From: an uncultured Flavobacteriaceae bacterium
Lineage (GTDB): Bacteria > Bacteroidota > Bacteroidia > NS11-12g > UBA955
NCBI GenBank assembly: GCA_964586595.1
Contig: CAZPHB010000016.1
Location: forward strand, 39 to 64,038
Direction of reading: 5' to 3'
DNA length: 64,000 nucleotides
Under the pieces are notes generated by a model. The model was not told where the DNA came from. It saw only the letters and a program-made list of their open reading frames with translations, and did not search any database. Below are positions 1-64,000 of the stretch, piece by piece. A program made the position numbers and the translations under genes. Position 1 is the first letter of the stretch; each line of letters opens with the position of its first letter.

Positions 1-374
1 GTCTCCGAAATCGCCAACTTCTTGTAGCTGCAAAACGTTATCGGGCGGCCTAAAAGACGACAGAGTAAAAAAATGACAGACTTCAAAACATATTACAATT
101 CAAGATTTCGAGACGACATAAATCGGTTCTTCTCGACTATTCCCGATGCAAGTAAGTTTCAAGAAGACCCTTAAAATAAACAGACTTTTTCAATCCAATA
201 CGAAAGACTAACACCTATCTTTGACCATCTTGATTTTTTAAACAAGGAAGAAAAAGAGTTGTTTGCAGTAGCGCTATTTTTCACAATCTTGACTGACATG
301 GTTTGCTTCACGCACTTTAAATTACATTACAACAAATTCAGATATCTTACACGATATCCAAAGTTTATTGGCAT

Positions 375-1531: not shown

Positions 1532-1814
1532 ACCATACGGATAAGCAGAAGGCCGACCCGCTAACACGGGTTTTGCGTCAGGGGGGGTGCCCCCGTTTCG
1601 TACCTCACGGGGCAAACTTGGAGCTTTGTGTCCCGAAAGCTTTCGGGATTCAGTGCTGGGTTGACAATTTTGTGTGGCGAGGTTAGACTCGCCATCGCGA
1701 GCATGCCTCGCGACTCCCAAAACCGCCCGAACGCAAAGCCCGAAAACGTTAGCAGTAATTCTTTTTAAACTGACATGTAAGTCCCCCCAACAGCACCCAT
1801 ACCAACAACAAATT

Positions 1815-42054: not shown

Positions 42055-45042
42055 TCAGCGGATCAGCTGAATGGTCCCATTTCCGCGTTCGGTTGGGCCA
42101 TCCTTTCTTTTGCGCGTGAACAGATAATAGTAAACGCCCTCCGGCAGCTCAGCACCAGTATTGTCCACGCGCCCATTCCAGCAATCTTCCGGAGCAGTTG
42201 CATGGAAAACAAGCAAACCCCATCGGTTGTAGATGTATAAATCCAGCTCATCGCAGGAACTGCTGATGCCTGCCAAACGGTAGCAATCATTCACCAGGTC
42301 GCCGTTTGGTGTGAATACATTCGGCACTTCCAGAATCCCGGTGGAATCGGTGAGCACAGCCACGGGGAATATTGCCGAATCCGGACAGCGCCCGGCGGAA
42401 TTAGTCGTCTTCAAACGCACAATCCAATTACCCTTTGTGTAAGCGTGTTTCACCTCAAAGCCGCTGGCCGAAGCTCCATCACCAAAAAACCATACGGGAT
42501 TGGCCACATTGGTGCCATTCACCTTAAAGTTTACCGTTTGGCTGCAGGGCTGGATGTCATAAACCGGTTCCACCTGCGCACCATCTTCCAGTATTAACTG
42601 GTACACGGCGCTGTCGTTGACGTTGCAGCTGAAACTGTCCAGCACCCTAAGCACAATTCTGAACGTTCCGCCCTTGCTGTATTGATGCACGGGATCTCGC
42701 TGGTTCGAGGTGGTTCCATCGCCAAAATCCCACAGGAAGCTGCGGGCATTTCGGCTTTTGTTGGTGAACCGGACGGTAAGCGGCGCACACCCTGTCTTTG
42801 GCTGCAGGTCGAAATCGGCCTCTACAGCATAGGTAATGTTGAAATCAATTTTGAAGCTGGCATTGCTGCATCGGTAGCTCAAATTCTTGGGGAATACCAC
42901 ACCGGGCGTTATCGGAAAATCGTTGAGGCCGGGTGGTTCAGGTGGACAGCTGGCGCACACGCTCTGGTAGATGACGCCGGATTTATCAAAGCGACTGGTT
43001 CCACCGTCCACATGGTCTTCACTTTCATCTCCGCCGAAGAAGGTTGCATATTGAAGTGCTTTGGCATCACGACCCAATACATACAGGTAAAAGTCGCTGC
43101 CGTCTGTGGTGGATTGCAGCGCATTGCTGCTCACCTCCAGCCTGTCCGTGGTGCTGGACGTATTCGGTGGAATATTGCTTCCCCAGGCACTTACATAGAT
43201 GTTGTAGCAATTGTCCACCATGAACGCCGAGGGACAGAGCTGCGCGATGCGTGCCAAGCTGCCGTAGGTGGTTACAAATTCCAACGAGTCGAGGTTATGG
43301 GTAAAACGCGCCACAAACTGACCGGTTTGGTCGTTGCCGTAGGTTCCGGGCGTGCGGGTAATTACACCGGTGGTTTGGCCCATGGCGTAAAGCTTGTCGT
43401 CCACATCAAAATCGATGAAGTACACCTGGTCATAATCGGCGGTTCCATAGAAACTGGTTTTCAGGAAATCACCTGTTTCTCTGTTCAGGTGGGCGATCCA
43501 TCCATCGGCAGAACCACCTGCATAGGTCATCTGCAGACCTGAATCCACCATGGCCAGGCTGCGGTTGGTTGTTCCACCGGCCACCCAAAGACCGCCGGAG
43601 CGGTCCAGTTTTACGCTGTACGCCGCTTCGCTGCCTGCTGTTCCGTAGAACGTACTCCAGCGCAGCTGATTCAAAGTACTGTCGAACGAGAACATATAGG
43701 CATCCAGCCCGCCGGCATGCGTGGTTTGAAAAGCTCCCGGAGTTGTAGTGGCATTGCTGCTTTGGGTGCAGGTAGCCACATACACGTTGTTGGAATCATC
43801 GGTGATGATGTCACCGCGGAAATCATCGGCATAGTTGTGGCGCAGCGCACCGGTCACCAAGCCATCGCGGTTGCTTCCGCCCATAAATGTTCCCGCAAGC
43901 AATGTATTCCCCTGCGCATTGAGGCGCATCACAACAATGTCAAATGCGCCATTGAAGGAAGTATCGTATCCTTTTTTTCCGGGGAAATTGTTGCTGGCGG
44001 TAGTTCCCAGCATCCAGAGGTTGTTGCTGCGGTCCACCACCAGGCTGTGCGGATATTCATCGTTCCAGCCACCAATGTATGTGGCATAGCGCAACTGCTT
44101 CCCGTCGCTGCTGTATTTACTGATGCTGATATCTGCCGGCAAATTGGCAGGGGTGACACCTATTCCTCCGCCATAAACTGTCTGATAAGCGCCGGCAGTG
44201 ACGGGGTATTCCCCTTCCGAATTGTCCACAATACCACCTGCGTACAGACTTCCTTCTTCATCATAGGTTGCGGTAAATCCGAAGTTATCGCCTACAGAAC
44301 CGCTGTAGGTGCTGAACACCAGCGTTGGATCGATGACCAGCGGGAGGCTGCGGTCGTAATTCCCTAATATGAATGAAACCGTTTGTCCATTGGTCTGAAA
44401 CCTGGCCGTTACCGGAACGGTATCCTGTTGCCGCACCTGCCAAGCCAGTGGGGCGGTTTCAATCCAGTCGCCCAGGCTGTTGCGTATGCGCAGCGAACCT
44501 TGTTCGTCGAGCCACATGCCTTCCTGACCCTCGTAACGCATTTGAATACGGTTTGGGTCGGCACCCGGTGCAAGCAGCCAGGTGCTGCGCGGAAAACCGG
44601 AAGGTGCATCAAACTCCAGGTCAATTCCCGGGTAAACGTTGTTCCAACGAATGCGGGCCGCCGCGTGCAGATCTGTTTTCCAGTGCGAAGGGTCATTCCC
44701 CAGAAAATAATTATAGCCCGCAGGACCCTCTTCAAGGGCTATAGGCTGCACCGGTGTGCAGTTTAAAAACGTAACGCGCAAGGCATGGCGGCGCACCACA
44801 AAAGTGGAATCAAAACGTTTCAGTCGGTGGAAATGGTTCCAGGCGGCATGGTGGTCATCGCGGTGTAACAGGTTTAGGGTCCAACCGTTGGTACGGGCAA
44901 AGAACCCTCCGCCATTGATTCCGGCATGAAAAGCATAATCACCCGACCATTGACCTTTATTGGGCATGAATACGCCCTGCGCCTTGAGCATCGCAAAAAG
45001 GCTCAAACACAAAAGAGAAAGCAGCAAGCGCCTGCGCATCAA
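42055..45042 (-). CDS. large secreted protein with SBBP beta-propeller repeats, PKD domain and T9SS type-B (gliding-motility-associated) C-terminal domain
   Basis: Signal peptide [22 protein letters not shown]; PKD '[11 protein letters not shown]'; C-terminus '[18 protein letters not shown]...[13 protein letters not shown]...GVYYYLF'. Confidence 0.75.
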
Positions 45043-48842: not shown

Positions 48843-48886
48843 AATAAGGCCGAGTGCAACAAAAATGCAAAGATTGATTCAAGGCA

Positions 48887-50452: not shown

Positions 50453-50461
50453 GCCTTTGGT

Positions 50462-51427: not shown

Positions 51428-51477
51428 GTGGCAAAATTAGTTGTTTCACCATGCGCAACTTCGCACCTGAGTCACAT

Positions 51478-51514
51478 AAAAAAAGAACCGCCCGAAGGCG
51501 GTCTTTTTTTGTTT
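51478..51514. terminator. bidirectional Rho-independent terminator downstream of the 51541..52398 gene
   Basis: aaaaaaagaaccgcccgaaggcggtctttttttgtttt. Confidence 0.75.
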
Positions 51515-51540
51515 TCTTGATTGTGGCGAAAGATGAATCT

Positions 51541-52398
51541 TCAGTCGCAATCATTGCTGAAATGGAACAGATAGATTCCGTCCACGGTATCGTCGCTGCT
51601 GCCTATGTCCTTGCGCACGATCTGACAACGCAGGGATTTGATTTTTACACCCGCAGGCAATGTGGGGAAAAATACCTGAGGCCTGAGCTGAAAGGTAAAC
51701 AAGCCGGATGACTTTTCTTTCATGGCCAACTGAGGATTATTCCCTGTTTGCAGGATGGAAGCAATTTGGTAGGTAAGCCCGTCTGTACCCAAGCCCTGCG
51801 CAAAAACATACAGGTCCTTCACTCCTTTCATGGACGCTTTTTCTTCCATGTTGTTGTTGTAAATCAAGGTGAATACGTCGTTGCTGCTGGTAGGCACGGT
51901 ATCCATTTTCAAGGTTTGCGGAAAGCTGGATACTTTGAGTGCTTCGGTTTTTGGACGCTCAACTTTGATGCTGAGGTCTTCGGTTTTGTCTTCGTTGCAG
52001 CCTCCGCCACCGGCGCCGGTTCCGTCTTTTTTCTTCACCAGCAACATGAAGCCTTTGTCGTAGATTTCACCTGCGGTGACGCCGTAGAATTTCGTAGGAA
52101 CCATGCGGTAATACCACACATCATTTCCGGCGGGGGTCATCTTCAACTCCTCGTTGCTGCTGCCCCATTGTCCGTTGAAGGTGGGATCGGAAGCGGCCCG
52201 GTCCTTGGGCGACCAGGTCCAGATATACAATGGTTCCGCGCTGCCTATCAGTCGCTGGCAATCGCACTTCTTGATATCTACCCAAATGGTGATGGAATCG
52301 TCCGGATTGATGGGATCCGGGGTAATCCAGGCTTTTTGGGCTGAGGCCGCGAAGCTGCCAAAGGCAAATAAGGCGGCACTGAGTATAATCCTGTTCAT
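51541..52398 (-). CDS. secreted hypothetical protein, PUL-associated (possible SusE/F-like surface protein)
   Basis: Signal peptide MNRIILSAALFAFGSFAASAQ; directly downstream of SusC/SusD and a lipoprotein. Confidence 0.45.
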   Translation of the reverse strand: MNRIILSAALFAFGSFAASAQKAWITPDPINPDDSITIWVDIKKCDCQRLIGSAEPLYIWTWSPKDRAASDPTFNGQWGSSNEELKMTPAGNDVWYYRMVPTKFYGVTAGEIYDKGFMLLVKKKDGTGAGGGGCNEDKTEDLSIKVERPKTEALKVSSFPQTLKMDTVPTSSNDVFTLIYNNNMEEKASMKGVKDLYVFAQGLGTDGLTYQIASILQTGNNPQLAMKEKSSGLFTFQLRPQVFFPTLPAGVKIKSLRCQIVRKDIGSSDDTVDGIYLFHFSNDCD

Positions 52399-52403
52399 GT
52401 TGC

Positions 52404-52898
52404 TTAAGATTTACGGGTGAACCAAAGGTGATAGCTGGTGGTGCGTTTGCCCTTGCAGCGCTTGTCGAGTTTCAACACCAAATTGGCATCCTGCGGGCGC
52501 ACGGGGCGCAGCAGCTTCATGCTGAGTTCCTCAGCGCTGGCTTCGTCAAAAATTACGCTTGAGGGATATTGCACATCGTCGAACTTCCAACTGCCGCTGG
52601 CCTTGGGAAACAGGTTGTACGAGGTTCCTGCATCCAGCGTGTAGGTGAAGTCTGCCGATTTGATGTCCAGGGTCATGGGATTGCTGCCCAGAAACACATC
52701 GCTCACCTCCAGCAAGGTATCGCTTTCTACGAAGGCCAGGGTTTTGGTCACATCAATCTGGTCCACACGGGTAAGTACCCAGTTGGCGTTGATGCCTTCC
52801 AGCTTGCTGGCCGGCTCCCCGATTTTCTTGATTTCTTTCTTGCAGGCTGTCAGTCCAAAGAACAACAGCGTCATGCATATAAAGGTAAACTTTTTCAT
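52404..52898 (-). CDS. small lipoprotein, PUL-associated
   Basis: Lipobox 'LTAC'; 164 aa; immediately downstream of susD. Confidence 0.5.
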   Translation of the reverse strand: MKKFTFICMTLLFFGLTACKKEIKKIGEPASKLEGINANWVLTRVDQIDVTKTLAFVESDTLLEVSDVFLGSNPMTLDIKSADFTYTLDAGTSYNLFPKASGSWKFDDVQYPSSVIFDEASAEELSMKLLRPVRPQDANLVLKLDKRCKGKRTTSYHLWFTRKS

Positions 52899-52913
52899 AT
52901 CCTGGTAAGTTTA

Positions 52914-54302
52914 TTAATCGCAGCCTCCGGTTGGGTTTAAGGGGAAGATGCTGGTTTGGTCGGAAATTGGGAATTGAAGGATGAAGCCCTTGCAATCCCA
53001 GGCGTGCCCACGCACGATGATGTTCTGTTTCTCTACGGCTGCCAAACGTTTCAAATCGTGGATGCGGTCGCCTTCAAACATCAGTTCCATGCGGCGCTGG
53101 TAGCGGGCTGCTTCGATGATTTGGGTAGCGGTGGAGCCGGCAGCAAGGATGCGGTTGTTGTTTTTGTAGGCGCGTCCGATGATGGCGTTCATGTCGGCGA
53201 TGGCGGTGCTCAGGTCTGTTCCGGTTTGGGCCAGGGCTTCAGCCCTGATCAGGTGGAGGCGCGTGAGGTGCAGCACGGGCACATCAAACAAGGGAGCGTT
53301 GTACAAATTGGTTTTAACCAATTCGTTCGCCTGACCCTTGTTCAGGGTTTCATAGTACGCCAAACGTTTATCGGCAGTATCGGTGTTTACGGTACTGAAA
53401 AACTGCCTGGATACCTGACACAGCGGCAATCCGGGTGAGTAGTTGTCGCGGAAGCCGCCGCCCCGGTTGTCGTTAATCCCTGTGCTCACTACCGAGAAGA
53501 TGGCCTCGGTAGCGCCTTTCGGAGTGAAGCGGTTCAGGGTATCAGAGAAGGTGTAACGTGCGCTGTTGATGACTGCAGAAGCCTGCGCAGCGGCATCGCC
53601 GTATTCACCCTGCTGGAAATACACTTCTGCCAACAAGGCCTGCGCCGCATATTTCGTCGCATAGTTTCCATTGCTTTCCGGAAGCAGGGTCGCAGCGTCC
53701 TTCAGGTCGCTGATGATCGACGCATAAGCCGCAGCCACGCTGCTGCGCGCCAAAGGTGTGCGGTCTGCCTTCAAAGCCAACCCGATGCCCGGATGGCTGT
53801 TGTCCGCCGAATAGCCCCAGGGATGCGCAAACAAACGCACCGCCGTGAAATGACACATCGCGCGGATGAATTTGGCTTCGCCTTCCATCCGGTTGCGGTC
53901 TGCTTCATTCAAATCAGCCGCCAGCGGAAAGCGCTCCATCACGAAGTTGGCGCGGAAAATGGCGCGGTACAGATTGCCATACAGCGATCCAATGGTGGTA
54001 TTGAAGAACAGGGTATTGTGGTTGAATACCTCGCGGTAGTCGTTGTTGTTCGGCAGGCTCAGGTTGTCGGCCATAAATTCCGAAATCACCTGCGCAAAAC
54101 CGCCGTAGGTATTGGCCACTTCATTGTAGCTGCCATTGAGCAGTTTCTGAAGGTCAGCACTGGTCTTTACGGCATCTTCCACCAAGAGTTCATTCTCCGG
54201 ACGGGTATCAATCATCTTATCGCAGCCGGCTGCAAAAACGCCCAGTGCAAATACAGCCAGAGCGGCGGTGAGGGTGCGGTTCTTGAAAATCGTGTAGTTC
54301 AT
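52914..54302 (-). CDS. susD: RagB/SusD family nutrient-uptake outer membrane lipoprotein
   Basis: Lipobox 'FAAGC'; TPR-like SusD fold; paired with the upstream SusC. Confidence 0.85.
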   Translation of the reverse strand: MNYTIFKNRTLTAALAVFALGVFAAGCDKMIDTRPENELLVEDAVKTSADLQKLLNGSYNEVANTYGGFAQVISEFMADNLSLPNNNDYREVFNHNTLFFNTTIGSLYGNLYRAIFRANFVMERFPLAADLNEADRNRMEGEAKFIRAMCHFTAVRLFAHPWGYSADNSHPGIGLALKADRTPLARSSVAAAYASIISDLKDAATLLPESNGNYATKYAAQALLAEVYFQQGEYGDAAAQASAVINSARYTFSDTLNRFTPKGATEAIFSVVSTGINDNRGGGFRDNYSPGLPLCQVSRQFFSTVNTDTADKRLAYYETLNKGQANELVKTNLYNAPLFDVPVLHLTRLHLIRAEALAQTGTDLSTAIADMNAIIGRAYKNNNRILAAGSTATQIIEAARYQRRMELMFEGDRIHDLKRLAAVEKQNIIVRGHAWDCKGFILQFPISDQTSIFPLNPTGGCD

Positions 54303-54313
54303 CGTTCGCTGCT

Positions 54314-57300
54314 TTAGAAGTTTACAGATAATGAGATGCTGTAGGATTTCTCCTGTGGCGCGGTGAGGTAGGTAATGCTGCCGCTCATGTTTCGGTCTGT
54401 GGGACTTTCAAAATCGCGGGCAATTTCAGGATCCAGGCCGGTATAATTGGTCCAGGTGAGCAGGTTTGTGGCAATGAAGGCAATGCGTGCCCCATCGAGG
54501 TTGTATTTCTTCGCTACGGAAGAAGGAAGCCTGTAGCCCACAGACAAGGAGCGCAAACGTACATAAGAACCGTCTTCCAGCCACTGCGTGGTATTGATCC
54601 AGGGCGTGGTGGAACCATAAGTGAAGGTGTTCAGGGTGCGGCGTGGATACCTCGCATCATCACCGGGCTTCTGCCAACGGTCGAATACGCGGGGATCGCT
54701 GTTCCAGTCGGTTTGCACACCCAACTGACGCTTGGCAGAAGATTCGTAGATGTCGCCGCCAATGCTGTAGTAAATATTCGCGGTCAGATCCCAGTTCTTA
54801 TAGCTGAAGCTGTTGTTCAATGAACCTATGGCTTCGGGAAGTACATCGCCCACAGGAACGCGGTTGGCCGGATCCCAACTCTTGGTTTCCTTGCCTTCTT
54901 TGTCCAGATATACCGGAAGTCCGGTGGCTTGATCAATATGGGAGAAGCGGACCAGGAAGTTCGTTCCCACGGGATAGCCAACCACCACACGCGTGTCGTT
55001 GGTTCCGCCGGAAACCGCATCTTCGCTGTACACGCCGATGCTGGTGATCTCGTTGTAGTTGCGGGCAATGTTGAAATCGGTGTTCCACTGGAAATTCTTC
55101 CGTTGGATGTTCTTGCTTTTCAGTACAAACTCCACGCCCCTGTTGATGATGCCGCCCACGTTGTCGTACATGCTGTAAAAGCCGGTGGTGCGGGGCACGG
55201 TAACATCCAGGATGACGTCTTTCGTGGCTTTGTCGTAATAAGTCAGTTCGAAGCTGATGCGGTTCTTGAACAAACTGCCTTCCAGCGTCGCATCGAAGTT
55301 GCGGGTGCTTTCCCAGCGCAGGTTCTGGTTCTCCAGACGCGCGGGTGCCAGCATCGGCTGACCATTGTACTGCGGCAGGTTGCCGGATGGGGTGATGGTT
55401 CCCCAACGGGCATAGTTGTCGAAGGAAGCATTGCCGGATTTTCCGATGCCTACCTTCACCTTCAGGAAGCTGATCCAGTCGTGGCGCTTGATGAATTCCT
55501 CATCGCTCAGGATATAACCCACCGCAGCGGCGGGGAAGAATCCGTAGCGGTTGTTGCGTCCGAAGCGGGAAGACCCGTCCACGCGCCCTGTTAATTGCAC
55601 GTTGAACTTGTTCTTGAACTTGTAGTTCGCCCTTCCGAAGTAACTCAAAAAGGCCCACTCGTAAGGCGTTCTGCCGAAGGCGCGCAAAGCGGTATCAGGA
55701 ATCGCTACCTTGTCTGTAGGACCGGTGGCATCCAGGTTTTCTACCGATTTGCTGGTGGTACGGGATTGCTGGTATTCATGACCAAGCATCACATTCACAC
55801 CGTGATCGGGTGTAATCTTCTTGTTCCAGTTGGCCGTGAGGTAATAGTTCATGTTGGAGGTCCAGATGGGGAACCACTTGGCTACGCCATTCTGCACATA
55901 ATTGGGACTGTAATAGCGAATGAGCTCCTGGGGTTCGTACAGAAATTCGCCGTAATCCATATAGTCATAGCTGGCGCTGCCGTTCAGGGTGATGTCGTCA
56001 GTCACCTCATAATTCAGGTTCAGGTTGTTGATGCTGCGCATTTCAATGCTGCGCCAGTCTTTCAGGTCGCGGATGGTACCAAGTCCAACCGGCGTTCTGT
56101 AGCCAATGCCATTGCTGTTCAGCAATGGTTCTTCGGGGAAGATGGGCAGCATGGTGCTCATAGCAGAACCCAGACCACCGGCCCAGGCCGCGTCCACCCT
56201 GCGGTTGATGCCTCGGCTCAGCGAATTGCTCAGGCTGATGTTCAGGCCTTTCAGCGGTTTGTAATCGGTATTCACCCTGCCGCTGAGGCGCTGATAATTG
56301 TTGCCGGCAAGGAATGATTCGTTATTGTCATAAGTAACAATGCTCTTCATGCCGAACCATTTATTGGTGTAACCGGCGGTGATGTTGTAGTTCTGTTTGT
56401 ATCCGGTCTGAATCACATCATCCACCCAGTTGGTATTGTATTTCTGGGCTTCCTGCCAGGTCATGTTCACGTTGATGAGCCCCAGATCCGGCGTTCCGGT
56501 GCGGCCATCGTTTTCCCAGGCTTCCTGGTACATCTGGAGAAATTCAGGACCATTCAGCATGCGAGGGGTTTTCGTTGGCTGGGAAATGCCGAATCGGGTC
56601 GAAACATCGAACTTCAAACCCTTCTTGCGGGCGCGCTTGGTGGTAATCAGGATTACCCCATTGGCGCCGCGTGAGCCGTAAATACTGGTGGCGGCGGCAT
56701 CCTTCAGAATTTCCACCGATTCAATATCATCGGGGTTGATGGTAGCCAGTGGGTTGTTGTTGAAGCCGGAGCCGAAGTTGCTGCCGTTGGAACGGTTCAG
56801 GAAATAATCCTGCGACACCGGAATTCCGTCAATCACGTACAAGGGGTCACCGGCGGCTGAAATGGACGCCACCCCGCGTATGCGGATCAGCGAAGCCGAA
56901 CCGGCCATACCGCTTCCCACCACTACCTGCACGCCGGGCGCCTTGCCTTGCAGGGCCGCCTCAAAACTGGGCGCCGGAATTTCAGCAATTTCCTTACCTG
57001 AAACCCGGGCAATCGAACCGGTAAGATCTCGTCGGTTCTGACGGCCATAGCCAATGATGACAATGGGATCTGCGCCTACGGATTTGGCAACGAGTTGCTT
57101 ATCCAGCACAAGGCTCTGCCCATCGCTCAGGTTGATGATTTCTTCGGAAGCTTCCAGTTGTTCGGAAGAAAAAACCACGGTATAAGTTCCTGCGGCAAGA
57201 CCCTGAATCAGGTAAGTACCGCTTTCGTTGGTCGCCGCCGACTTGTTCGCACCTTTCAGGCGCACAGTAACACCTGACAGGGCTTCACCTTTGTCGCCGG

Positions 57301-57406
57301 TCACTTTACCTGCCAGCGACGCCGTCTGAGCCCACAGATTGGCACCTCCAAAGAATAGCAGCAATCCGGGCAGCAAGCCTTGCAATCGTATCGTTCGAAG
57401 CATCAT
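54314..57406 (-). CDS. susC: SusC/RagA family TonB-linked outer membrane protein
   Basis: 1030 aa; carboxypeptidase-regulatory-like N-domain; TonB-box plug; C-terminal beta-barrel ending in F. Confidence 0.9.
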   Translation of the reverse strand: MMLRTIRLQGLLPGLLLFFGGANLWAQTASLAGKVTGDKGEALSGVTVRLKGANKSAATNESGTYLIQGLAAGTYTVVFSSEQLEASEEIINLSDGQSLVLDKQLVAKSVGADPIVIIGYGRQNRRDLTGSIARVSGKEIAEIPAPSFEAALQGKAPGVQVVVGSGMAGSASLIRIRGVASISAAGDPLYVIDGIPVSQDYFLNRSNGSNFGSGFNNNPLATINPDDIESVEILKDAAATSIYGSRGANGVILITTKRARKKGLKFDVSTRFGISQPTKTPRMLNGPEFLQMYQEAWENDGRTGTPDLGLINVNMTWQEAQKYNTNWVDDVIQTGYKQNYNITAGYTNKWFGMKSIVTYDNNESFLAGNNYQRLSGRVNTDYKPLKGLNISLSNSLSRGINRRVDAAWAGGLGSAMSTMLPIFPEEPLLNSNGIGYRTPVGLGTIRDLKDWRSIEMRSINNLNLNYEVTDDITLNGSASYDYMDYGEFLYEPQELIRYYSPNYVQNGVAKWFPIWTSNMNYYLTANWNKKITPDHGVNVMLGHEYQQSRTTSKSVENLDATGPTDKVAIPDTALRAFGRTPYEWAFLSYFGRANYKFKNKFNVQLTGRVDGSSRFGRNNRYGFFPAAAVGYILSDEEFIKRHDWISFLKVKVGIGKSGNASFDNYARWGTITPSGNLPQYNGQPMLAPARLENQNLRWESTRNFDATLEGSLFKNRISFELTYYDKATKDVILDVTVPRTTGFYSMYDNVGGIINRGVEFVLKSKNIQRKNFQWNTDFNIARNYNEITSIGVYSEDAVSGGTNDTRVVVGYPVGTNFLVRFSHIDQATGLPVYLDKEGKETKSWDPANRVPVGDVLPEAIGSLNNSFSYKNWDLTANIYYSIGGDIYESSAKRQLGVQTDWNSDPRVFDRWQKPGDDARYPRRTLNTFTYGSTTPWINTTQWLEDGSYVRLRSLSVGYRLPSSVAKKYNLDGARIAFIATNLLTWTNYTGLDPEIARDFESPTDRNMSGSITYLTAPQEKSYSISLSVNF

Positions 57407-57585
57407 TTCTTTCGATTAAGGCCGTAAAAATAGTAAAAAATCAAATAAGTGTCTATTTAACACTAAGTATTGATGAATTTGCCTGAGAAACCGTAAATCA
57501 TCAGCTTAAATACCTTGACAAATCAGGCTCCCCGCATCTGTTGCTATCATCCTGAACCACAAAGAATACAAACGATGTTCGCGCT

Positions 57586-59778
57586 TTATAGCAAATGAAA
57601 CACCCCTTTGAACAGGTCGGTGATGCTGCACACGCTCTTCCCGCGGATCACATAGATGTACACGCCTTTGGGCGCAGGACGGCCTTGATACGTGCCATCC
57701 CAGAATGTTTTCTTATCGGTAGTGGAAAACACCATTTCGCCCCAGCGGTTGTAGATCTCGCAGCGGTAGGATTCCAGTTCCTCCAAACCCGTAATCTGAA
57801 AGGTTTCATTCAGCGCATCTCCGTTGGGACTGAACGCATTCGGAATCAGCAGCGTATAACCCGGTATTTCCTCGCGCACCCGAAACTGCCAGGTGCTGTC
57901 GTAACATCTGTTTTTCAAGTTTACCCAGTAGTTACCGGGCGTATCCACCTCCAGTATGCGGCCGCGGGCGCCTGTGCTCCACAAAACCTGAGTGGCCGGC
58001 GGTGGATTTACCGTGATAAATGTGCTGTTGCGGTTCTTGCAGATCACATACATCTCGTCCACCGGGCGCTGCGGCTCCGGAAGGTAATTCACTGTAAATG
58101 TATCCTCCCACACTTTGCAGGCAAATACCAGTTGGCGGCGGTATATGCCCGACGCTTTCACCTCAAGACTGTCGCCGCTGCCCAGCAGGCGGCCATCGCG
58201 ATACCAGTTGGAGCGCAACTGCCCGTAGAAAGCATTGCCGCCAACCACATACCTTGCACCCGTGCACAACAGTGTATCCGGCAGCCGTGCAGGCGTTTGT
58301 ATGGCCACCGCACGGAAGGATGCAGTGGAACTGTCTAGCAGATTGCAGCTCCAGCGGTAGTAAACCGTGGTCTTGTAGGTACCTGTATCAATTGGTGTGA
58401 ACTGCAGCGAATCGCCGGCGGTTTCATACAACACCCGGCCATCCGGACCGGTAATCTTGCAGCGCAGGCGGATGAAATCCCGGTAATAATCCGCTTTTAT
58501 TAAATGCGCAATACCCACACAGGCCGTTTTGCCCTGCAACACCCGAACCCCGGGGTTGTAGTAGGCGCCGAAAGGGATGTAGTATTGATGAGTAAAATAT
58601 GGGTTGTAAGCATCAAATGAATCTATGGGGAAACCATTATAAGCACTTTGATCAATACTATCCCAGGGAATATAAAACGATTCAGGTTCATAACCGCAGG
58701 CCAATCCTTCCCGATCCGGGTAGGGAATGATGTCCGGATATTTCCTGGTGGTGATGCCCACTAACAATTGACCGGTGGGTAGTAAGTGAATGAAGGGGCT
58801 ACCGACCGAACCTTTTTGATACCCTCTGATGGCGATGGTTTGTGCCTTGATGCTGTCTTTATGCAACACCGTAATATCGGCCTGGTACAGCGTATCCCGA
58901 TGTATGTAATACAACTTCCGTCCATTCAGCGAATAACTCAGCGTGCCACTGATCGGACTGGGAAGCAGCATCAGGGACTCCGGGTCAATCCGCATTTTCT
59001 CCCGATCAAAGCGATGCACGCCAAAACCACGAACATCTCCGCTTAGTATGCAATGACTTAAATCAGGCGAAAACGCGTAGATCTTTGCACGACCGGGTGT
59101 AGTAGGTGAACCTTTCAAAGACTGCATCACCCGCCGTACACATTTGCCATTCACAACCTCTGCCATCTCCGTAAAGTAAACCTCAGGAAATCCGGCTCTT
59201 TTATTCGAGCCGCCGCCATATAGAAATATCTTTGAACAATCAGGAGTGTATATAACATTATCTACATAATTGAATAAGTTATAATTATAAAACAGCATAG
59301 TGGTATCATAAAATCGGGAAGAATCATCATTGAAATTCATCAGATAAGGAAAAGAATAGGGGTATTTTTTTGTATAATATAAATTATCATAATAACGCAA
59401 AATACTTGAACGATGATAATCGGGCATCTGCAGCATGAAAGTGTACCACAAATTACATTTTTCATAATTGGGGAAGGCGCTGTCGGCCTGCAGGTAGCGG
59501 TTTACGATGCGTTCCCCGCATTGTTTGCCGTTCAGTTTTACCCCCAGATAAAAATCACCCGCAGAGTCGGTTAAATAAGACATGCATTGGTTAAACGATG
59601 TATTAAATTGGGTAGGCTTGTAAAATCTTGGCGGATACTGTTTAAAATCCATGACATACCCGCGATCGCCAATGGACCAGATATTGTGGTTCCTGAGCTG
59701 CGCCTGCAAAATATCCGGACTCATGGCCCCCAGCAGGGCCATGAGTCCGAATAACATGCGTTTCAATGGGGGAATCAT
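57586..59778 (-). CDS. secreted protein with T9SS type-B (gliding-motility-associated) C-terminal domain, paralog copy 1
   Basis: Start chosen at M11 (ATG 59776-59778; signal peptide MIPPLKRMLFGLMALLGAMSPDILQAQ) overlapping the upstream stop as TAATG; C-terminus 'LLIPNAFSPNGDALNETFQITG...YRCEIYNRWGEMVF...KGVYIYVIRG'. Confidence 0.7.
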   Translation of the reverse strand: MIPPLKRMLFGLMALLGAMSPDILQAQLRNHNIWSIGDRGYVMDFKQYPPRFYKPTQFNTSFNQCMSYLTDSAGDFYLGVKLNGKQCGERIVNRYLQADSAFPNYEKCNLWYTFMLQMPDYHRSSILRYYDNLYYTKKYPYSFPYLMNFNDDSSRFYDTTMLFYNYNLFNYVDNVIYTPDCSKIFLYGGGSNKRAGFPEVYFTEMAEVVNGKCVRRVMQSLKGSPTTPGRAKIYAFSPDLSHCILSGDVRGFGVHRFDREKMRIDPESLMLLPSPISGTLSYSLNGRKLYYIHRDTLYQADITVLHKDSIKAQTIAIRGYQKGSVGSPFIHLLPTGQLLVGITTRKYPDIIPYPDREGLACGYEPESFYIPWDSIDQSAYNGFPIDSFDAYNPYFTHQYYIPFGAYYNPGVRVLQGKTACVGIAHLIKADYYRDFIRLRCKITGPDGRVLYETAGDSLQFTPIDTGTYKTTVYYRWSCNLLDSSTASFRAVAIQTPARLPDTLLCTGARYVVGGNAFYGQLRSNWYRDGRLLGSGDSLEVKASGIYRRQLVFACKVWEDTFTVNYLPEPQRPVDEMYVICKNRNSTFITVNPPPATQVLWSTGARGRILEVDTPGNYWVNLKNRCYDSTWQFRVREEIPGYTLLIPNAFSPNGDALNETFQITGLEELESYRCEIYNRWGEMVFSTTDKKTFWDGTYQGRPAPKGVYIYVIRGKSVCSITDLFKGVFHLL

Positions 59779-61361
59779 TATTGCAACATGAGGCGGTTTA
59801 CATACCATGTATGGCCGGAGTTCACTTTCACCATATAAGAGCCCGCAGGAAGGCCGGGCAGGCTTATTTCACTGCCGGAAACCAGCTTTGGGTTTTCCAT
59901 CACCAAACGTCCGTTGAGGTCATAAACCAACAGCCTGCCGGTTTCGCCGGGCGACCAGCTCAGTTGGACCTTGCCCGAAGCCGGGTTGGGCGTGATGTGC
60001 AGTCGGCCCATAGGGTTTATTTCCCGTTTTTCTGCTGTTAGCGGGGCGGGTCCGGCAGGGTATTCATCGCAGTCTGAACTGCTGATGTTCCGGAAGCGTG
60101 CTGCGCTGATGGTGATGGTTTTGTAAGTGCTCCAGCCGCAGATATTACGCGTGCGCACCTTCACCGTAACGTCGCTGTTGGGATTCAATGCCCATGCCGA
60201 ACCAAAATCGCAAAAATCCGTGCCGATGGTCTGACCACTCAGGGTATAAGTACCGCTGCCATTGTCAAAACTCCATTCCCATTCCTCTATCGTTGGGTCG
60301 TCGTTCGTGGTCCAGAACAACACATTCCGACGGCAAACACAGAGATCACCCAACTCACCATCCCAGCTAATTTGAGGCATGTCCGGAACGCCCGCCGGAA
60401 TTTTAATGCGGTGCATCAGGATTTGTTCTCCGCAAGGAGAGGATGCTTTCAGGTCGATGTCCACAAAACCGAAATTCCCAGCATTAGCTGCCACGGTAAA
60501 AGTATAACAACGACCATTCTCAATTGCATTAGTAACAGTAGGAAGAGAAACGCTATCAGTACTACCCACCTGATAATCCCATTGATAATTGGTACAAGGC
60601 AGCGAATCTACGCACAGGGTAACCGTACCCGTGGAGCAGATTACATTCGGCCAAACGCCCGTTTTGGTGAGTTGCGGCATGCGGGTAATGGTCACCGAAC
60701 CGGTGTTTCCCGCAAGGGTTTTGTCGCAGCCTTTAGGCCATACGGTGACCTGTACCTTTGCCCCATTTTGACCATTGGCCGGCGTTACGAGCACAGAAGG
60801 ACTTCCCTGTCCTGAATTCAGTGTCCAGCCACCGGGTAGAGTCCATTCGTAGTTATAGTCACCACCACCACTTCCGGCTGAAAAAAAGTATGAGTTGTTA
60901 TCGCAACAGGGAATGTAATCTGGGCCTACAATGTTTACCACTTCCGGAGGACATTTGGGTGTTACCCAAATGGTTTTTGTGGCAAGGAATGTTTTTGAAG
61001 ACACACAAATCCGAGAAATTACATTTCCGGCAGTATCCGTGGTTTCTACCAACTGATACGTCACACAATAGGCATCGCAACGAAGGAAATTCCCACCTGC
61101 CGGACAATCCCATTTAACCACAGCACCTGTTGCACTTTGTGATTGAATCAAACCTCCTCCGCAAGACCATTCATATTGCGTTTCCGGGTTGTAGGTGACG
61201 CCGTTGGCTGTGCACGATTGCCCGGAACAATTGGCGCCAGTTAAACTCATGGTGTAGGAATAATTTACACCTTTACATGGATTAGTCTCGCCGCTCAGCG
61301 ACAGGGTTTGAGCCGATAGCCCCCCCCCGCAAGAACCAGACCAAGAATGCAGCCTTTCCAA
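59778..61361 (-). CDS. Cys/Trp-rich secreted protein with T9SS type-A (Por) C-terminal sorting domain; start ambiguous around a poly-G tract (may extend to ATG ~61403)
   Basis: C-terminus 'LHITPNPASGKVQLSW...LLVYDLNGRLVMEN...LPAGSYMVKVN'; the ORF track starts at TTG 61361 with no signal peptide, but an ATG ~40 nt upstream encodes MNIKFNFSLLRPSFWKGCILGLVLAGG in the adjacent frame. Confidence 0.7.
   Translation of the reverse strand: MERLHSWSGSCGGGLSAQTLSLSGETNPCKGVNYSYTMSLTGANCSGQSCTANGVTYNPETQYEWSCGGGLIQSQSATGAVVKWDCPAGGNFLRCDAYCVTYQLVETTDTAGNVISRICVSSKTFLATKTIWVTPKCPPEVVNIVGPDYIPCCDNNSYFFSAGSGGGDYNYEWTLPGGWTLNSGQGSPSVLVTPANGQNGAKVQVTVWPKGCDKTLAGNTGSVTITRMPQLTKTGVWPNVICSTGTVTLCVDSLPCTNYQWDYQVGSTDSVSLPTVTNAIENGRCYTFTVAANAGNFGFVDIDLKASSPCGEQILMHRIKIPAGVPDMPQISWDGELGDLCVCRRNVLFWTTNDDPTIEEWEWSFDNGSGTYTLSGQTIGTDFCDFGSAWALNPNSDVTVKVRTRNICGWSTYKTITISAARFRNISSSDCDEYPAGPAPLTAEKREINPMGRLHITPNPASGKVQLSWSPGETGRLLVYDLNGRLVMENPKLVSGSEISLPGLPAGSYMVKVNSGHTWYVNRLMLQ
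61320..61329 (-). repeat. homopolymeric poly-G (coding strand) / poly-C (+ strand) tract of 9-10 nt at the signal-peptide/body junction
   Basis: Read directly: 'gatagc' then 'ccccccccc' then 'gcaag'; exact length uncertain by +/-1 against the ORF-track frame. Confidence 0.8.
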
Positions 61362-61757
61362 AATGATGGCCGCAATAACGAAAAATTAAATTTTATGTTC
61401 ATGATATGTATATATTAGCATTGGCAAGATATTTTTTTTAATTCATAATTCCAAATGTAAGCACCTTTAGAAATCAAGGCCGTAATTATTTTTCCAGGCG
61501 CATTTTGCTGATTCAGATGGCCTTCGATCGGTTATGTTATTGATTTTCAATTAGTTAAATTCTTTTTGAAGCATTTCAGCAATAACCCGCTTCATGAGTT
61601 AGGTCAAAGATTCTTCCAGCAAAACAATCCTCAGCCCGGCACTTCCGTGCTGCCGTCGGCGTGTTTGGCGAAGCGGATTCGCAAAACCTACGATGACCAT
61701 GAAACAGCTAATACTCTGTTTTTGGCTGTGTAAAAGCGCTGAATACTTATGTCTTGC
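61362..61757. promoter_or_regulatory. AT-rich 396-bp intergenic region between cassette units (terminator of unit 2 / promoter and leader of the type-A-CTD gene)
   Basis: Markedly AT-rich compared with the flanks; the only sizeable noncoding gap in the tandem array. Confidence 0.5.
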
Positions 61758-63950
61758 TTATAGCAGGTGAAACACCCCCTTGAACAGTTTCACCTGCGTG
61801 CAGATGCTTTTGCCCCTTATCAGGTATATGTACACGCCTTTCGGTGCGGGTTTACCATTGATGGTGCCATCCCAGAATGTTTTCTTATCGGTAGTGGAAA
61901 ACACCATTTCGCCCCAGCGGTTGTAGATCTCGCAGCGGTAGGATTCCAGTTCCTCCAAACCCGTAATCTGAAAGGTTTCATTCAGCGCATCTCCGTTGGG
62001 ACTGAACGCATTCGGAATCAGCAGCGTATAACCCGGTATTTCCTCGCGCACCCGAAACTGCCAGGTGCTGTCGTAACATCTGTTTTTCAAGTTTACCCAG
62101 TAGTTACCGGGCGTATCCACCTCCAGTATGCGGCCACGTGCGCCGGTATTCCATGACACCGCAGTGGCCGGCGGTGGATTTACCGTGATAAATGTGCTGT
62201 TGCGGTCTTTGCAGATGACATACATCTCATCCACCGGCCGGGCAGGTTCCGGAATCACCTTCACCTCAAAAGTGTCTTCCATGGCCGTACAGCCAAAGTC
62301 TAAGCGACGGCGATACATACCCGCCTCACCAACCCTCAGGGTATCGCCCTGCTGCACATAGCGGTTGTTGTGGTACCAAGAGGTACTGCGTTGACCATAG
62401 CTACTGTCGCTGCGCAACAGGAATTGCTGGCCGTAACACAACACCGTATCCGGCAGCGGCGGCGGTGTGCGTATGGCTTGCACCCGGAAGTTGCTGTGCG
62501 CGCTGTCCAGCAGGTTGCAGCTCCAGCGGTAATAAAGTGTGGTGCGGTAGGTGCCGGTATCGGCAGGTGTAAAGCGGAAGGAATCCGCGTAGGACACATA
62601 TACCACTTTACCCGAAGGGTCACTCACCTTCCATTCCATACGAATAAAATCGCGGTAGTAATCGGCCTTCACCGCGTGCGGTACCCCGGCACAGGCCGTG
62701 CGCCCTTGAACCACCTGAACACCAGGGTTGTAGTAGGCGCCGAAAGGGATGTAGTCCTCATCAGGGAAATATGGGTCGTAAATATCAAATGAATCTATGG
62801 GGAAACCATTGTAAGCACTTTGATCAATACTATCCCAGGGAATGTAAAACGATTCAGGTTCATAACCGCAGGCCGCTCCTTCCCGATCCGGGTAGGGAAT
62901 AATGTCCGGATATTTCCTGGTAGTGATGCCCACCAACAATTGACCGGTGGGCAGTAAATGGATGAAGGGGCTGCCGACCGAACCTTTTTGATACCCTCTG
63001 ATGGCGATGGTTCTGGCCTTGATGCTGTCTTTATGTAGCACCGTAACATCGGCCTGGTACAGCGTATCCCGATGTATGTAATACAACTTCCGTCCATTCA
63101 GCGAATAACTCAGCGTGCCACTGATCGGACTGGGAAGCAGCATCAGGGACTCCGGGTCAATCAGCATTTTCTCCCGATCAAAGCGATGTATGCCAAAACC
63201 ACGCGCATCTCCGCCTAATATGCAATGACTTAAATCTGGAGAAAATGCGTAGATCTTTGCACGACCGGGTGTAGAAGGTGAACCTTTTAAAGACTGTATC
63301 ACCCGCCGTACACATTTGCCATTCACAACCTCTGCCATCTCCGTAAAATAAACCTCAGGAAATCCGGCTTTTTTATTGGAGCCGCCGCCATATAGAAATA
63401 CCCTTGAACAATCAGGGGTGTATATCACATTTCTAACAATATTACTAAAATTATAATTTGAAAAAATTATGGAAGTATCGGTGAAACGGGAAGTATCCGC
63501 AGACAAATTTAGAAGATAATGAAATCCATCAGGATAACGTTTGGTATAATAATAATGGCTGTAATAGCGCAATATACTTGAACGATGATGATCTGGCATC
63601 TGTAGCATGAAGGTGGACCACCAACCGCAATCTTCATATTTGGGGAAGGCGCTGTCGGCCTGCAGGTAGCGGTTTACGATGCGTTCCCCGCATTGTCTGC
63701 CGTTCAGTTTTACACCCAGATAAAAATCACCCGCAGAGTCGGTTAAATAAGACATGTATCGGCTAAAAGAGGAATTATATTCGGTAGGCTTGTAAAACGT
63801 TGGCGGATACTGTTTGAAATCCACAACATACCCGCGATTGCCAATGGACCAGATATTGTGGTTCCTGAGCTGCGCCTGCAAAATATCCGGACCCATGGCC
63901 CCCAAGAGGGCCATGAGTCCGAATACTATGCGTTTCAAGGGGTGAGCCAT
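61758..63950 (-). CDS. secreted protein with T9SS type-B C-terminal domain, paralog copy 2
   Basis: Start at M11 (ATG 63948-63950, signal peptide MAHPLKRIVFGLMALLGAMGPDILQAQ), again a TAATG overlap with the upstream gene; C-terminus identical in type to copy 1. Confidence 0.7.
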   Translation of the reverse strand: MAHPLKRIVFGLMALLGAMGPDILQAQLRNHNIWSIGNRGYVVDFKQYPPTFYKPTEYNSSFSRYMSYLTDSAGDFYLGVKLNGRQCGERIVNRYLQADSAFPKYEDCGWWSTFMLQMPDHHRSSILRYYSHYYYTKRYPDGFHYLLNLSADTSRFTDTSIIFSNYNFSNIVRNVIYTPDCSRVFLYGGGSNKKAGFPEVYFTEMAEVVNGKCVRRVIQSLKGSPSTPGRAKIYAFSPDLSHCILGGDARGFGIHRFDREKMLIDPESLMLLPSPISGTLSYSLNGRKLYYIHRDTLYQADVTVLHKDSIKARTIAIRGYQKGSVGSPFIHLLPTGQLLVGITTRKYPDIIPYPDREGAACGYEPESFYIPWDSIDQSAYNGFPIDSFDIYDPYFPDEDYIPFGAYYNPGVQVVQGRTACAGVPHAVKADYYRDFIRMEWKVSDPSGKVVYVSYADSFRFTPADTGTYRTTLYYRWSCNLLDSAHSNFRVQAIRTPPPLPDTVLCYGQQFLLRSDSSYGQRSTSWYHNNRYVQQGDTLRVGEAGMYRRRLDFGCTAMEDTFEVKVIPEPARPVDEMYVICKDRNSTFITVNPPPATAVSWNTGARGRILEVDTPGNYWVNLKNRCYDSTWQFRVREEIPGYTLLIPNAFSPNGDALNETFQITGLEELESYRCEIYNRWGEMVFSTTDKKTFWDGTINGKPAPKGVYIYLIRGKSICTQVKLFKGVFHLL

Positions 63951-64000
63951 TACTGTAACATGAGGCGGTTTACATACCATGTATGGCCGGAGTTCACTTT
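63950..64000 (-). CDS. 3' end (last ~16 codons) of a third gene, homologous to the type-A-CTD gene at 59778..61361, truncated by the window edge
   Basis: The reverse complement of 63950-64000 encodes ...KVNSGHTWYVNRLMLQ*, identical to the C-terminus of the 59778..61361 product. Confidence 0.5.
   Translation of the reverse strand, partial: KVNSGHTWYVNRLMLQ

What the first reader, a model, noticed from the sequence alone, without database searches (positions are those of the whole stretch)
57586..63950. Mosaic divergence between the two type-B CTD paralogs: identical flanks, hypervariable internal patches
The two ~730-aa paralogs are near-identical over residues ~190-370 and ~560-740, including the CTD. 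They diverge to roughly 50% identity in residues ~370-560 (e.g. ...FTHQYYIPFGAYYNPGVRVLQGKTACVGIAHLIK... vs ...FPDEDYIPFGAYYNPGVQVVQGRTACAGVPHAVK...). A second divergent patch lies near residues 120-190, and the extreme C-terminal ~30 nt also differ. Conserved scaffolds interrupted by variable cassettes are typical of surface proteins under diversifying selection (antigenic or phage-receptor variation). Segmental gene conversion between tandem copies would explain it.
Basis: seen in the sequence. Interest (0 to 1): 0.6.

Follow-up and report, generated by a model that had tools for sequence, protein, structure and literature searches.

The report
Recombination mosaic in paired surface-protein genes
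Two neighbouring genes for secreted cell-surface proteins of an uncultured freshwater Bacteroidota bacterium differ in sharp blocks because stretches were swapped between two old gene types, not because those stretches mutate fast; this is a known kind of evolution seen here in an undescribed protein family.

Summary
The blockwise pattern is real, with corrected boundaries, and far beyond chance. It is not hypervariability. In the divergent patches synonymous sites are saturated (pS 0.64-0.75), against dS 0-0.19 in the similar blocks. dN/dS is below 1 wherever it can be estimated (0.16-0.76). With ten relatives from other assemblies, the main patch (ORF aa 420-615, Ig-like modules R1, R2 and half of R3) falls into two discrete old types. 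Type alpha includes copy A; type beta includes copy B.

Copy B is a recombinant:
- Its N-terminal 400 aa group with the alpha-scaffold clade. The first ~235 aa are 99-100% identical to an independent contig (L048) that carries an alpha patch.
- Its patch and last ~105 nt are 96-99% identical to genes (L046, L047) whose N-terminal halves are only ~50-65% identical to B.
- A 272-nt CTD core is identical to copy A.

Segment trees conflict with 91-100% bootstrap support. The phenomenon is a known kind. The protein family, its overlapping type-A-CTD partner gene, and a length-variable poly-G tract in that partner are undescribed.

The parts
57586..59778 (-). Copy A: 730-aa T9SS type-B-CTD protein, alpha type throughout. 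Signal peptide, N-terminal beta-rich domain with no Pfam match, three Ig-like modules R1-R3, then the CTD.
   Evidence: ORF. CHU_C and TIGR04131 hits at aa 654-739. No Pfam hit for aa 1-410 or 420-650. AF2 model and Ig-array fold hits. 98-100% identical to L001.
61758..63950 (-). Copy B: 730-aa paralog, a recombinant. Alpha-clade scaffold, beta patch, A-identical CTD core, beta tail.
59251..59424 (-). Patch V1 in copy A (ORF aa 129-186), the multi-allelic region. The counterpart in B is 63423..63596.
   Evidence: 68% nt identity between A and B, pS 0.64, dN/dS 0.20. Six types among 12 genes. Low-confidence part of the model.
63423..63596 (-). Patch V1 in copy B. 100% identical to L048 and 57-68% identical to all other family members.
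57964..58549 (-). Patch V2 in copy A, alpha type (Ig-like modules R1, R2 and half of R3).
   Evidence: 59% nt identity to B. 87-95% identical to L001, L002, L048 and L043a.
62136..62739 (-). Patch V2 in copy B, beta type. 96-99% identical to L046 and L047. Contains a ~37-nt A-like micro-tract at 62166..62202.
   Evidence: Breakpoints at 62742/62739, 62207/62202, 62166/62162 and 62136/62121. Chi2 424. Bootstrap 100% and 98%. dS 0.07-0.10 to L047 and L046.
57692..57963 (-). 272-nt tract in A that is 100% identical to B at 61864..62135. Covers the second half of R3 and the CTD core. A recent conversion tract.
   Evidence: longest run. Also 100% identical in L001 and 99-100% in L048.
61864..62135 (-). 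The same 272-nt identical tract in B.
61758..61863 (-). C-terminal tail of B, beta-tail type. One difference from L046 over ~105 nt. The counterpart in A (57586..57691) is alpha-tail type.
   Evidence: crossover between 61878 and 61863, in the FWDG motif. Bootstrap 100% for B+L046+L047.
59778..61402 (-). Partner gene: PKD_6 domain plus a type-A CTD. Its stop overlaps the start of copy A (TAATG). The signal-peptide ATG at ~61400-61402 is out of frame with the mature ORF (59778..61361) as assembled.
   Evidence: Pfam and NCBIfam hits. TAATG overlap conserved in all loci. Mature part dN/dS 0.13-0.34 and mosaic. Frames.
61320..61328 (-). G9 homopolymer in the partner's signal-peptide coding region. 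G10 would restore the frame.
   Evidence: Relatives carry G8, G8, G9, G9 and G11. N-termini of called proteins imply G8 and G9 in several contigs each.
63950..64000 (-). 3' end of a second partner gene upstream of B, cut by the window end. Its last 16 codons are identical to A's partner.
59712..59753 (-). Conserved 17-18-bp hairpin or palindrome about 27 nt after the start codon of copy A. The same element in B lies at 63884..63925.

Best explanation
A and B belong to a very small family of T9SS type-B-CTD surface proteins. Each is encoded directly behind, and overlapping by TAATG with, a type-A-CTD partner gene. The two-gene module exists in two old types, alpha and beta, about 40% diverged at the nucleotide level with saturated synonymous sites.

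Copy A is alpha throughout. Copy B is a patchwork made by homologous recombination:
- Window 63950 to 62742: alpha-clade scaffold.
- 62739 to 62136: beta-type Ig-like modules R1, R2 and half of R3.
- 62135 to 61864: CTD core identical to copy A, a recent A/B conversion tract. A second A-like micro-tract of ~37 nt lies inside the beta region.
- Last ~105 nt: beta tail.

Crossovers lie in short motifs shared by both types (FGAYYNP, EVDTPG, FWDG).

Shown: the blockwise dS, the segment-tree conflict, sequences resembling each piece's source, and the nucleotide breakpoints.

Inferred:
- Exchanges happen both between paralogs within a genome (modules occur at two nearby loci in related genomes, with one or two copies seen at a locus) and between lineages.
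- The CTD core is repeatedly homogenised.
- Keeping one alpha and one beta patch per tandem pair reflects functional differentiation.
For: - Segment dS: 0-0.19 in similar blocks; pS 0.64-0.75 in patches; dN/dS below 1.
- Type matrix of 12 genes: the patch is strictly dimorphic. Both tandem pairs (window B+A; L043a+L043b) hold one alpha and one beta copy.
- Nearest relatives of B by segment: L048 99-100% for aa 1-235; L002/L048 96-99% for aa 236-400; L046/L047 96-99% in the patch; A 100% in the CTD core; L046 ~99% in the tail.
- Bootstrap support 91-100% for conflicting clades; homoplasy test p <= 0.002. Triplet chi2 424 against 23.
- Exchange between lineages: gene A vs L001 has dS 0-0.03, while SusC has 0.23 and TrxR 0.70. 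B's patch vs L047 has dS 0.07, although L047's DUF5777 is only 82% identical to L001's.
- CTD homogenised within a genome three times with different boundaries: B/A, L046, and L043a/b (dS 0.11 against more than 2 elsewhere).
- Partner genes show the same alpha/beta split and are mosaic.
Against: - The exact combination seen in B occurs in only one contig. No second assembly carries it (the cluster has one member).
- A beta-type donor is not present in the window, so within-genome conversion for the patch is inferred, not shown.
- The direction of events cannot be decided: either an alpha gene imported beta pieces, or a beta gene was largely overwritten by alpha sequence.
- All sequences come from metagenome assemblies.
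- The claim that selection maintains one alpha and one beta patch per pair rests on two pairs only.
Confidence: 0.85

Rival explanations
1. Diversifying (positive) selection on point mutations in exposed patches of an otherwise uniformly aged duplicate pair.
For: The patches are sharply bounded. V1 is multi-allelic, with six types among 12 genes. The proteins are surface cargo.
Against: Synonymous sites are saturated in the patches but not in the scaffold. dN/dS is 0.13-0.28 in the patches for nearly all pairs (0.36 for the low-count A-L001 comparison). The V2 patch has two discrete types, each conserved across distant genes. Near-identical copies of B's patch sit in genes with ~50-65% identical scaffolds.
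Confidence: 0.03
2. Copy B is an assembly chimera that joins reads of two co-occurring strains or paralogs at shared k-mers.
For: The source is a metagenome assembly. B's exact combination is seen in one contig only. The contig apparently ends ~0.9 kb beyond the window, inside the repeated partner gene (contig length 64925).
Against: The 5' crossover lies in only ~20-25 nt shared by the two types, and there is a ~37-nt A-like micro-tract flanked by beta sites. Both are shorter than typical final assembly k-mers, so reads carrying these junctions should exist. L048 independently confirms B's first ~400 aa. L046 independently shows the same kind of 3' half: beta patch, alpha-like CTD core, beta tail. 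Mosaics are seen in several independent assemblies, for example L002 = L003 = L004.
Confidence: 0.05
3. A programmed variation system: silent-cassette antigenic variation, a shufflon or invertible segment, or a diversity-generating retroelement acting on the patches.
For: Modules are tandemly arranged, copy number varies between genomes, and there is a hypermutable-looking poly-G tract in the partner gene.
Against: No partial or silent copies of the patch occur in the 64-kb window. No inverted repeats bracket the patches. The substitution spectrum is balanced with no adenine bias. Both copies are full-length genes under purifying selection.
Confidence: 0.05
4. No recombination: an old duplicate pair with strongly uneven substitution rates along the gene.
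For: Domain-specific constraint is common, and the CTD is the most conserved part family-wide.
Against: Rate differences cannot produce a 272-nt run of complete identity next to saturated synonymous sites. They also cannot produce conflicting segment trees with 91-100% support.
Confidence: 0.02

Closest known systems
Interlocus gene conversion between diverged paralogous surface-antigen genes giving allelic dimorphism (Plasmodium falciparum DBLMSP/DBLMSP2; PMC10919680)
   Same: One domain has exactly two deeply diverged types. One type is shared across paralogs. Non-allelic conversion is the mechanism, and the rest of the gene is much less diverged.
   Different: This case is bacterial and concerns T9SS cargo. 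The types are also shared across distant lineages, which implies horizontal exchange. No host immune system is involved, because the organism is free-living in fresh water.
Mosaic divergence in tandem paralogues through interlocus gene conversion (HMA4 model, bioRxiv 10.1101/2025.10.29.685298), and 'islands of divergence' persisting under conversion (PMC3728101)
   Same: Tandem copies are homogenised in blocks, with sharply bounded islands that escape conversion.
   Different: Here the islands are not only escaped ancestral sequence. B's island is 96-99% identical to genes in other lineages.
Domain rearrangement and allelic exchange in T9SS-secreted surface proteins of Porphyromonas gingivalis (Kgp, HagA and others; PMC5266723)
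   Same: Bacteroidota surface cargo is diversified by exchange of discrete domain variants that do not follow the strain phylogeny.
   Different: Those are type-A CTD proteins of a host-associated pathogen, from unrelated families. Here a type-B CTD protein and a type-A partner vary as one module.
T9SS type-B CTD cargo such as SprB and PG1035, anchored through PorP/SprF-like shuttle proteins (PMC9143113, PMC12618676)
   Same: C-terminal type-B sorting domain (TIGR04131/PF13585), Ig-like repeat modules ahead of it, and a Sec-type N-terminus.
   Different: No PorP/SprF-like gene is linked to this module. Instead a type-A-CTD, PKD_6 gene overlaps the start codon. The N-terminal 410 aa match no described family.

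Membership tests
T9SS type-B CTD cargo (TIGR04131 / PF13585 CHU_C) | C-terminal type-B sorting domain scoring above the curated cut-off | tested here: met
   PF13585 at 73-74 bits (cut-off 27). TIGR04131 at 60-63 bits (cut-off 35). Both copies, aa 654-739.
T9SS type-B CTD cargo (TIGR04131 / PF13585 CHU_C) | N-terminal Sec signal peptide | tested here: inconclusive
   By inspection, the sequence shows a basic n-region and a hydrophobic core (MIPPLKRMLFGLMALLGAMSPDILQAQ). No signal-peptide predictor was available.
T9SS type-B CTD cargo (TIGR04131 / PF13585 CHU_C) | Linked cognate PorP/SprF-like shuttle gene (frequent but not obligatory; orphans are known, PMC12618676) | tested here: not met
   No PorP/SprF-like gene lies next to the module here or in L043, L044 or L047. 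None was found among the ten other window ORFs scanned with Pfam between 31.7 and 52.9 kb.
T9SS type-B CTD cargo (TIGR04131 / PF13585 CHU_C) | T9SS machinery in the same genome, and actual secretion | not testable with these tools
   Only a 64-kb window is available. A type-A CTD gene and a further type-B CTD gene (42055..45042) are present in the window.
Gene-conversion / recombination mosaic of paralogs | Blockwise heterogeneity of synonymous divergence | tested here: met
   dS is 0 to 0.19 in similar blocks; pS is 0.55-0.75 in the three patches. Shuffle tests.
Gene-conversion / recombination mosaic of paralogs | Statistically supported conflict between segment phylogenies | tested here: met
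   Bootstrap 91-100% for incompatible clades. Chi2 424 against a permutation maximum of 23. Homoplasy test p <= 0.002.
Gene-conversion / recombination mosaic of paralogs | Donor located in the same genome (conversion in the strict sense) | tested here: inconclusive
   Copy A is a within-genome source for the 272-nt tract. No beta donor lies in the window. Related genomes carry modules at a second locus after Pirin.
Simple-sequence-repeat contingency (phase-variable) locus, for the partner gene | Homopolymer in the 5' coding region whose length sets the reading frame | tested here: met
   G9 at 61320-61328 separates the signal-peptide frame from the mature frame.
Simple-sequence-repeat contingency (phase-variable) locus, for the partner gene | Tract length differs between close relatives | tested here: met
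   G8, G8, G9, G9, G9 and G11 were observed. L044 (G11) and L045 (G9) encode the identical type-B protein. Called N-termini imply G8 and G9 in at least 4 contigs each.
Simple-sequence-repeat contingency (phase-variable) locus, for the partner gene | Both in-frame (ON) and out-of-frame (OFF) lengths occur | tested here: not met
   G10, the in-frame length in all lineages, was never observed. Yet the mature ORF is under purifying selection, with dN/dS 0.13-0.34.
Diversity-generating retroelement target | Adenine-specific substitutions between template and variable repeat, with a reverse transcriptase nearby | tested here: not met
   The substitution spectrum is balanced. The differences trace to homologous genes elsewhere.
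Invertible segment / shufflon | Inverted repeats bracketing the variable segment | tested here: not met
   No such inverted repeats in 57000-64000.

The most novel reading that the evidence does not exclude
The two-gene module is a contingency locus of free-living freshwater Bacteroidota. Under this reading, expression is switched by slippage of the poly-G tract in the partner's signal-peptide region, with polar effects on the overlapping type-B gene. The displayed Ig-like modules and the CTD tail are re-assorted between two old types that balancing selection (for example from phages or grazers) keeps in the population and, as one alpha plus one beta, within tandem pairs. The CTD core is repeatedly homogenised to stay compatible with the host's own T9SS shuttle.
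Probability: 0.2. Interest if true: 0.65.

Novelty: new member of a known kind. Interest (0 to 1): 0.4.

Why it matters
**Method.** It shows how to tell a recombination mosaic from fast-evolving patches. Per-segment synonymous divergence and a handful of relatives are enough, and they reverse the selection story here.

**Biology.**
- It defines an undescribed, very rare T9SS cargo family. Only two 50%-identity clusters and one N-terminal fragment among 1.84 billion representatives match outside the C-terminal ~330 aa.
- The family is organised as a type-A/type-B two-gene module.
- It has two old cassette types that move between lineages whose housekeeping genes are 68-82% identical.
- CTD cores are homogenised again and again within a genome. 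That bears on how type-B sorting signals stay matched to their shuttle proteins, which recent work has left open (PMC12618676).
- If the poly-G tract is a real switch, it would be a simple-repeat contingency locus in environmental Bacteroidota. From general knowledge rather than a result here, phase variation in this phylum is mostly reported as DNA inversion.

Tried and rejected
- The first AlphaFold model, from a 6-sequence alignment, was unusable (pLDDT 32). A 53-sequence alignment gave pLDDT 70.8, but aa 20-175, which include V1, and aa 371-411 stay below 50.
- The metagenome scan keyed on CTD motifs and returned only distant CTD matches, with no new family members. The genome scan found only L001 and L002 again.
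- Look-up of B's own protein (P0003) found no record. P0198's contig had no DNA available.
- Pfam found nothing for aa 1-410 or for the Ig-like modules, even at E <= 10.
- The sigma-70 promoter and terminator scans gave no more sites than shuffles, and the consensus is not suited to Bacteroidota.
- The identity profiles of the two tandem pairs (A/B and L043a/b) do not correlate overall (Spearman 0.22, p = 0.31). Only the divergent patch and the homogenised CTD are shared features.
- DGR, shufflon and silent-cassette models were considered and rejected.


Full report
**1. The observation**

The window holds two 740-codon ORFs on the minus strand: A at 57586..59808 and B at 61758..63980. Between them lies a 527-codon ORF (59778..61361) with a PKD_6 domain and a type-A T9SS sorting domain. 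Both A and B end in a type-B sorting domain; PF13585 and TIGR04131 both score above their cut-offs.

A and B align without a gap, at 82.5% nt and 79.8% aa identity. Identity is strongly blockwise, in ORF (740) numbering:
- aa 1-128: ~90% nt.
- aa 129-186: 68%.
- aa 187-395: 94%.
- aa 421-575: 59%.
- aa 576-618: 84%.
- A 272-nt run of complete identity (ORF nt 1846-2117).
- aa 695-740: 74%.

In 2000 codon-position-preserving shuffles the longest identical run never exceeded 73 nt. The variance of differences per 60 nt never exceeded 17, against 89 observed. The main patch is shifted to aa ~420-615, and the C-terminal difference is ~105-140 nt rather than ~30.

**2. The patches are old, not fast-evolving**

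Nei-Gojobori estimates give dS of 0-0.19 in the similar blocks. The three patches have pS of 0.64, 0.75 and 0.55. dN/dS is 0.16-0.45 in the estimable segments and 0.76 in the short leader/signal-peptide segment (aa 1-37). Third codon positions drop to 30-50% identity in the main patch.

Positive selection on point mutations raises dN, not dS. These segments therefore differ in age. The substitution spectrum is balanced, so a diversity-generating retroelement is excluded.

**3. Relatives**

- Only five 90%-identity clusters of close relatives exist among 5.8 billion proteins.
- A profile search of 1.84 billion representatives found one other full-length cluster (P0008) and one fragment. The other listed hits match only the C-terminal part (profile positions ~400-730, mostly ~500-730), that is, repeated Ig-like modules plus the CTD.
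- Cluster members and their contigs gave DNA for ten further genes.
- The named records are a river MAG and a Lake Mendota MAG of Bacteroidota. The other contigs are unnamed metagenome assemblies.

**4. The type matrix**

A 12-gene codon alignment was cut into ten segments. In 730-aa numbering, which is ORF numbering minus 10, the main patch (aa 410-566, extending to ~606) has exactly two types:
- alpha: A, L001, L002, L048, L043a.
- beta: B, L005, L007, L043b, L044, L046, L047.

The two types are 54-67% identical to each other and 84-99% identical within a type. Within beta, the patch is the most conserved part of the gene: L005 vs L007 has dS 0.10, against 0.56-0.84 in the N-terminal scaffold. 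All within-type dN/dS values are 0.13-0.36.

L043 carries an independent tandem pair in a different organism, and it also holds one alpha and one beta copy. In that pair only the CTD (aa ~625-730) is homogenised, at 93-99% with dS 0.11. Everything else has dS above 2.

The first patch (aa 119-176) is multi-allelic, with six types. The tail has three types.

**5. Anatomy of copy B**

Nearest relatives by segment:

| B segment (730-aa numbering) | Nearest relative | Identity |
|---|---|---|
| aa 1-235 | L048, an independent assembly that carries an alpha patch | 99-100% |
| aa 236-400 | L002 / L048 | 96-99% |
| Patch | L046 / L047 (scaffolds only 47-66% identical to B) | 96-99% |
| 272-nt CTD core | A and L001 | 100% |
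| Last ~105 nt | L046 | one difference |

Crossover intervals in window coordinates are 62742/62739, 62207/62202, 62166/62162, 62136/62121 and 61878/61863. Each lies in a short motif shared by both types (FGAYYNP, EVDTPG, FWDG). They enclose a ~37-nt A-like micro-tract inside beta sequence, which is typical of heteroduplex repair.

Statistical support:
- Triplet chi2 is 424 against a permutation maximum of 23; 183 of 201 informative sites in aa 421-616 follow L005.
- Bootstrap puts B in the alpha-scaffold clade in S1 and S2b (91-92%; 100% with L043a). It puts B in beta for the patch (100%), and with L046/L047 in the patch (98%) and tail (100%).
- A homoplasy test gives p <= 0.002.

The simplest reading is that B's 3' half is beta-derived and was overwritten twice by A-like tracts. 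Its 5' half belongs to the alpha-scaffold clade. The order and direction of these events cannot be decided.

**6. Exchange between lineages**

- The organisms are distant. TrxR dS is 0.70 between the window and L001 and about 1.9 between the window and L043. L047's DUF5777 is 82% identical to L001's.
- Yet gene A vs L001 has dS 0-0.03, with identity falling from 99-100% in the gene to 83-90% a few kb away.
- B's patch vs L047 has dS 0.07. A's patch vs L043a has dS 0.31.
- So modules or cassettes have moved between lineages.
- Modules sit at two nearby loci, after Pirin and after DUF5777, with one or two copies seen at a locus. That provides within-genome partners for conversion.
- The CTD core was homogenised independently, with different boundaries, in B/A, in L046 and in L043a/b.

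**7. What the protein is**

With a 53-sequence alignment the AlphaFold model reaches pLDDT 75-97 for aa 410-730. It shows three all-beta modules (R1 411-491, R2 502-565, R3 576-636) and the CTD. The recurring C..W..G-x-Y..C signature is visible in the alignment. Foldseek returns tandem Ig arrays, including the T9SS-secreted GhpA; TM-scores are low, so this is fold-class evidence only. The N-terminal 410 aa are beta-rich and match no Pfam family.

[quoted passage not shown] The idea that repeated CTD-core homogenisation keeps paralogs matched to one shuttle is my inference. The neutral alternative is that the conserved CTD simply seeds recombination.

**8. The partner gene**

- Its stop overlaps the type-B start (CAATAATG) in every locus.
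- It shows the same alpha/beta split and is itself mosaic.
- It is deleted in L001, truncated in L005 and frameshifted in L002/L049.
- Its signal-peptide region contains a G9 tract at 61320-61328, the only G/C run of 8 or more bases in the window.
- Tract lengths are G8, G8, G9, G9, G9 and G11 in six loci, and they differ between two contigs that encode the identical type-B protein.
- G10 would be in frame in all lineages. It would give a signal peptide of the same length as the tract-less homologue in L043a. It was never seen.
- The mature region nevertheless has dN/dS of 0.13-0.34.

Possible explanations are phase variation with OFF predominant, transcriptional slippage, or homopolymer error. 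This remains open.

**9. Verdict**

The finding is a real recombination mosaic between two old types of a two-gene T9SS surface module. Comparable phenomena are described for P. falciparum DBLMSP1/2 (PMC10919680), for tandem paralogues (bioRxiv 10.1101/2025.10.29.685298) and for P. gingivalis surface proteins (PMC5266723). I rate it a new member of a known kind, in an undescribed family.

Noticed in passing
window 61320-61328 (minus-strand G9), partner gene 59778..61402: A poly-G tract splits the partner's signal peptide (ATG ~61402, MNIKFNFSLLRPSFWKGCILGLVLAGGG) from the mature ORF. G10 would be in frame. Relatives carry G8, G9 or G11 but never G10, yet the mature part has dN/dS of 0.13-0.34. 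Candidate phase-variable or slippage site, or homopolymer error.
   Followed up: partly
window 59712-59753 and 63884-63925; also L002, L005, L007, L043, L046, L047, L048: A 17-18-bp GC-rich palindrome or hairpin lies ~27 nt after the type-B start codon, inside the signal-peptide codons (FGLMALLGAMSP). It is nearly invariant at the nucleotide level in all 10 sequences, while the flanking codons vary. Most variants are G-U-compatible one-sided changes; a few cells, three of them in L043a, break a pair. There are no compensatory double changes.
   Followed up: partly
L001:1161-1333 versus window 59860-61366: The closest relative genome has lost the whole partner gene through a ~1.5-kb deletion, keeping its upstream region and last ~50 nt. 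The partner is also truncated in L005 and multiply frameshifted in L002/L049, while the type-B gene stays intact in every case.
   Followed up: partly
window 47566-59859 versus L001: Identity to L001 forms a gradient: 99-100% in gene A, ~95% in SusC, and 83-90% at the thioredoxin reductase and BNR genes. One ~600-nt stretch at 49075-49661 is only 63-65% identical. This suggests a recent recombination import centred on the type-B gene.
   Followed up: partly
window 51541-57406: Directly downstream of copy A, on the same strand, lie a SusC-like TonB-dependent receptor (54314..57406), a SusD-like protein (52914..54302), a 164-aa protein with a hydrophobic N-terminus and no Pfam match, and a DUF4961 protein. 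This looks like a PUL-type cluster without an obvious glycoside hydrolase. Co-transcription with the module was not tested.
   Followed up: no
window 42055-45042 (minus strand): A third type-B CTD protein (995 aa; DUF7948, PKD, CHU_C), unrelated to A and B apart from the CTD (31% identity).
   Followed up: no
window 38191-41085 (plus strand): A single 964-aa ORF combining a GH3 N-terminal domain with a beta-lactamase-family domain.
   Followed up: no
L043:4089-12223, L044:8721-12208, L047:4640-8340, L049:10001-12400: Module copy number and location vary between genomes. There are two tandem modules after Pirin in L043, one in L044 and L049, and one after DUF5777 in L047. L044 and L047 also carry a short Por_Secre_tail ORF on the opposite strand next to the module.
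   Followed up: partly
window 1-2000: GC content is 0.42, against 0.49-0.57 in the rest of the window.
   Followed up: no
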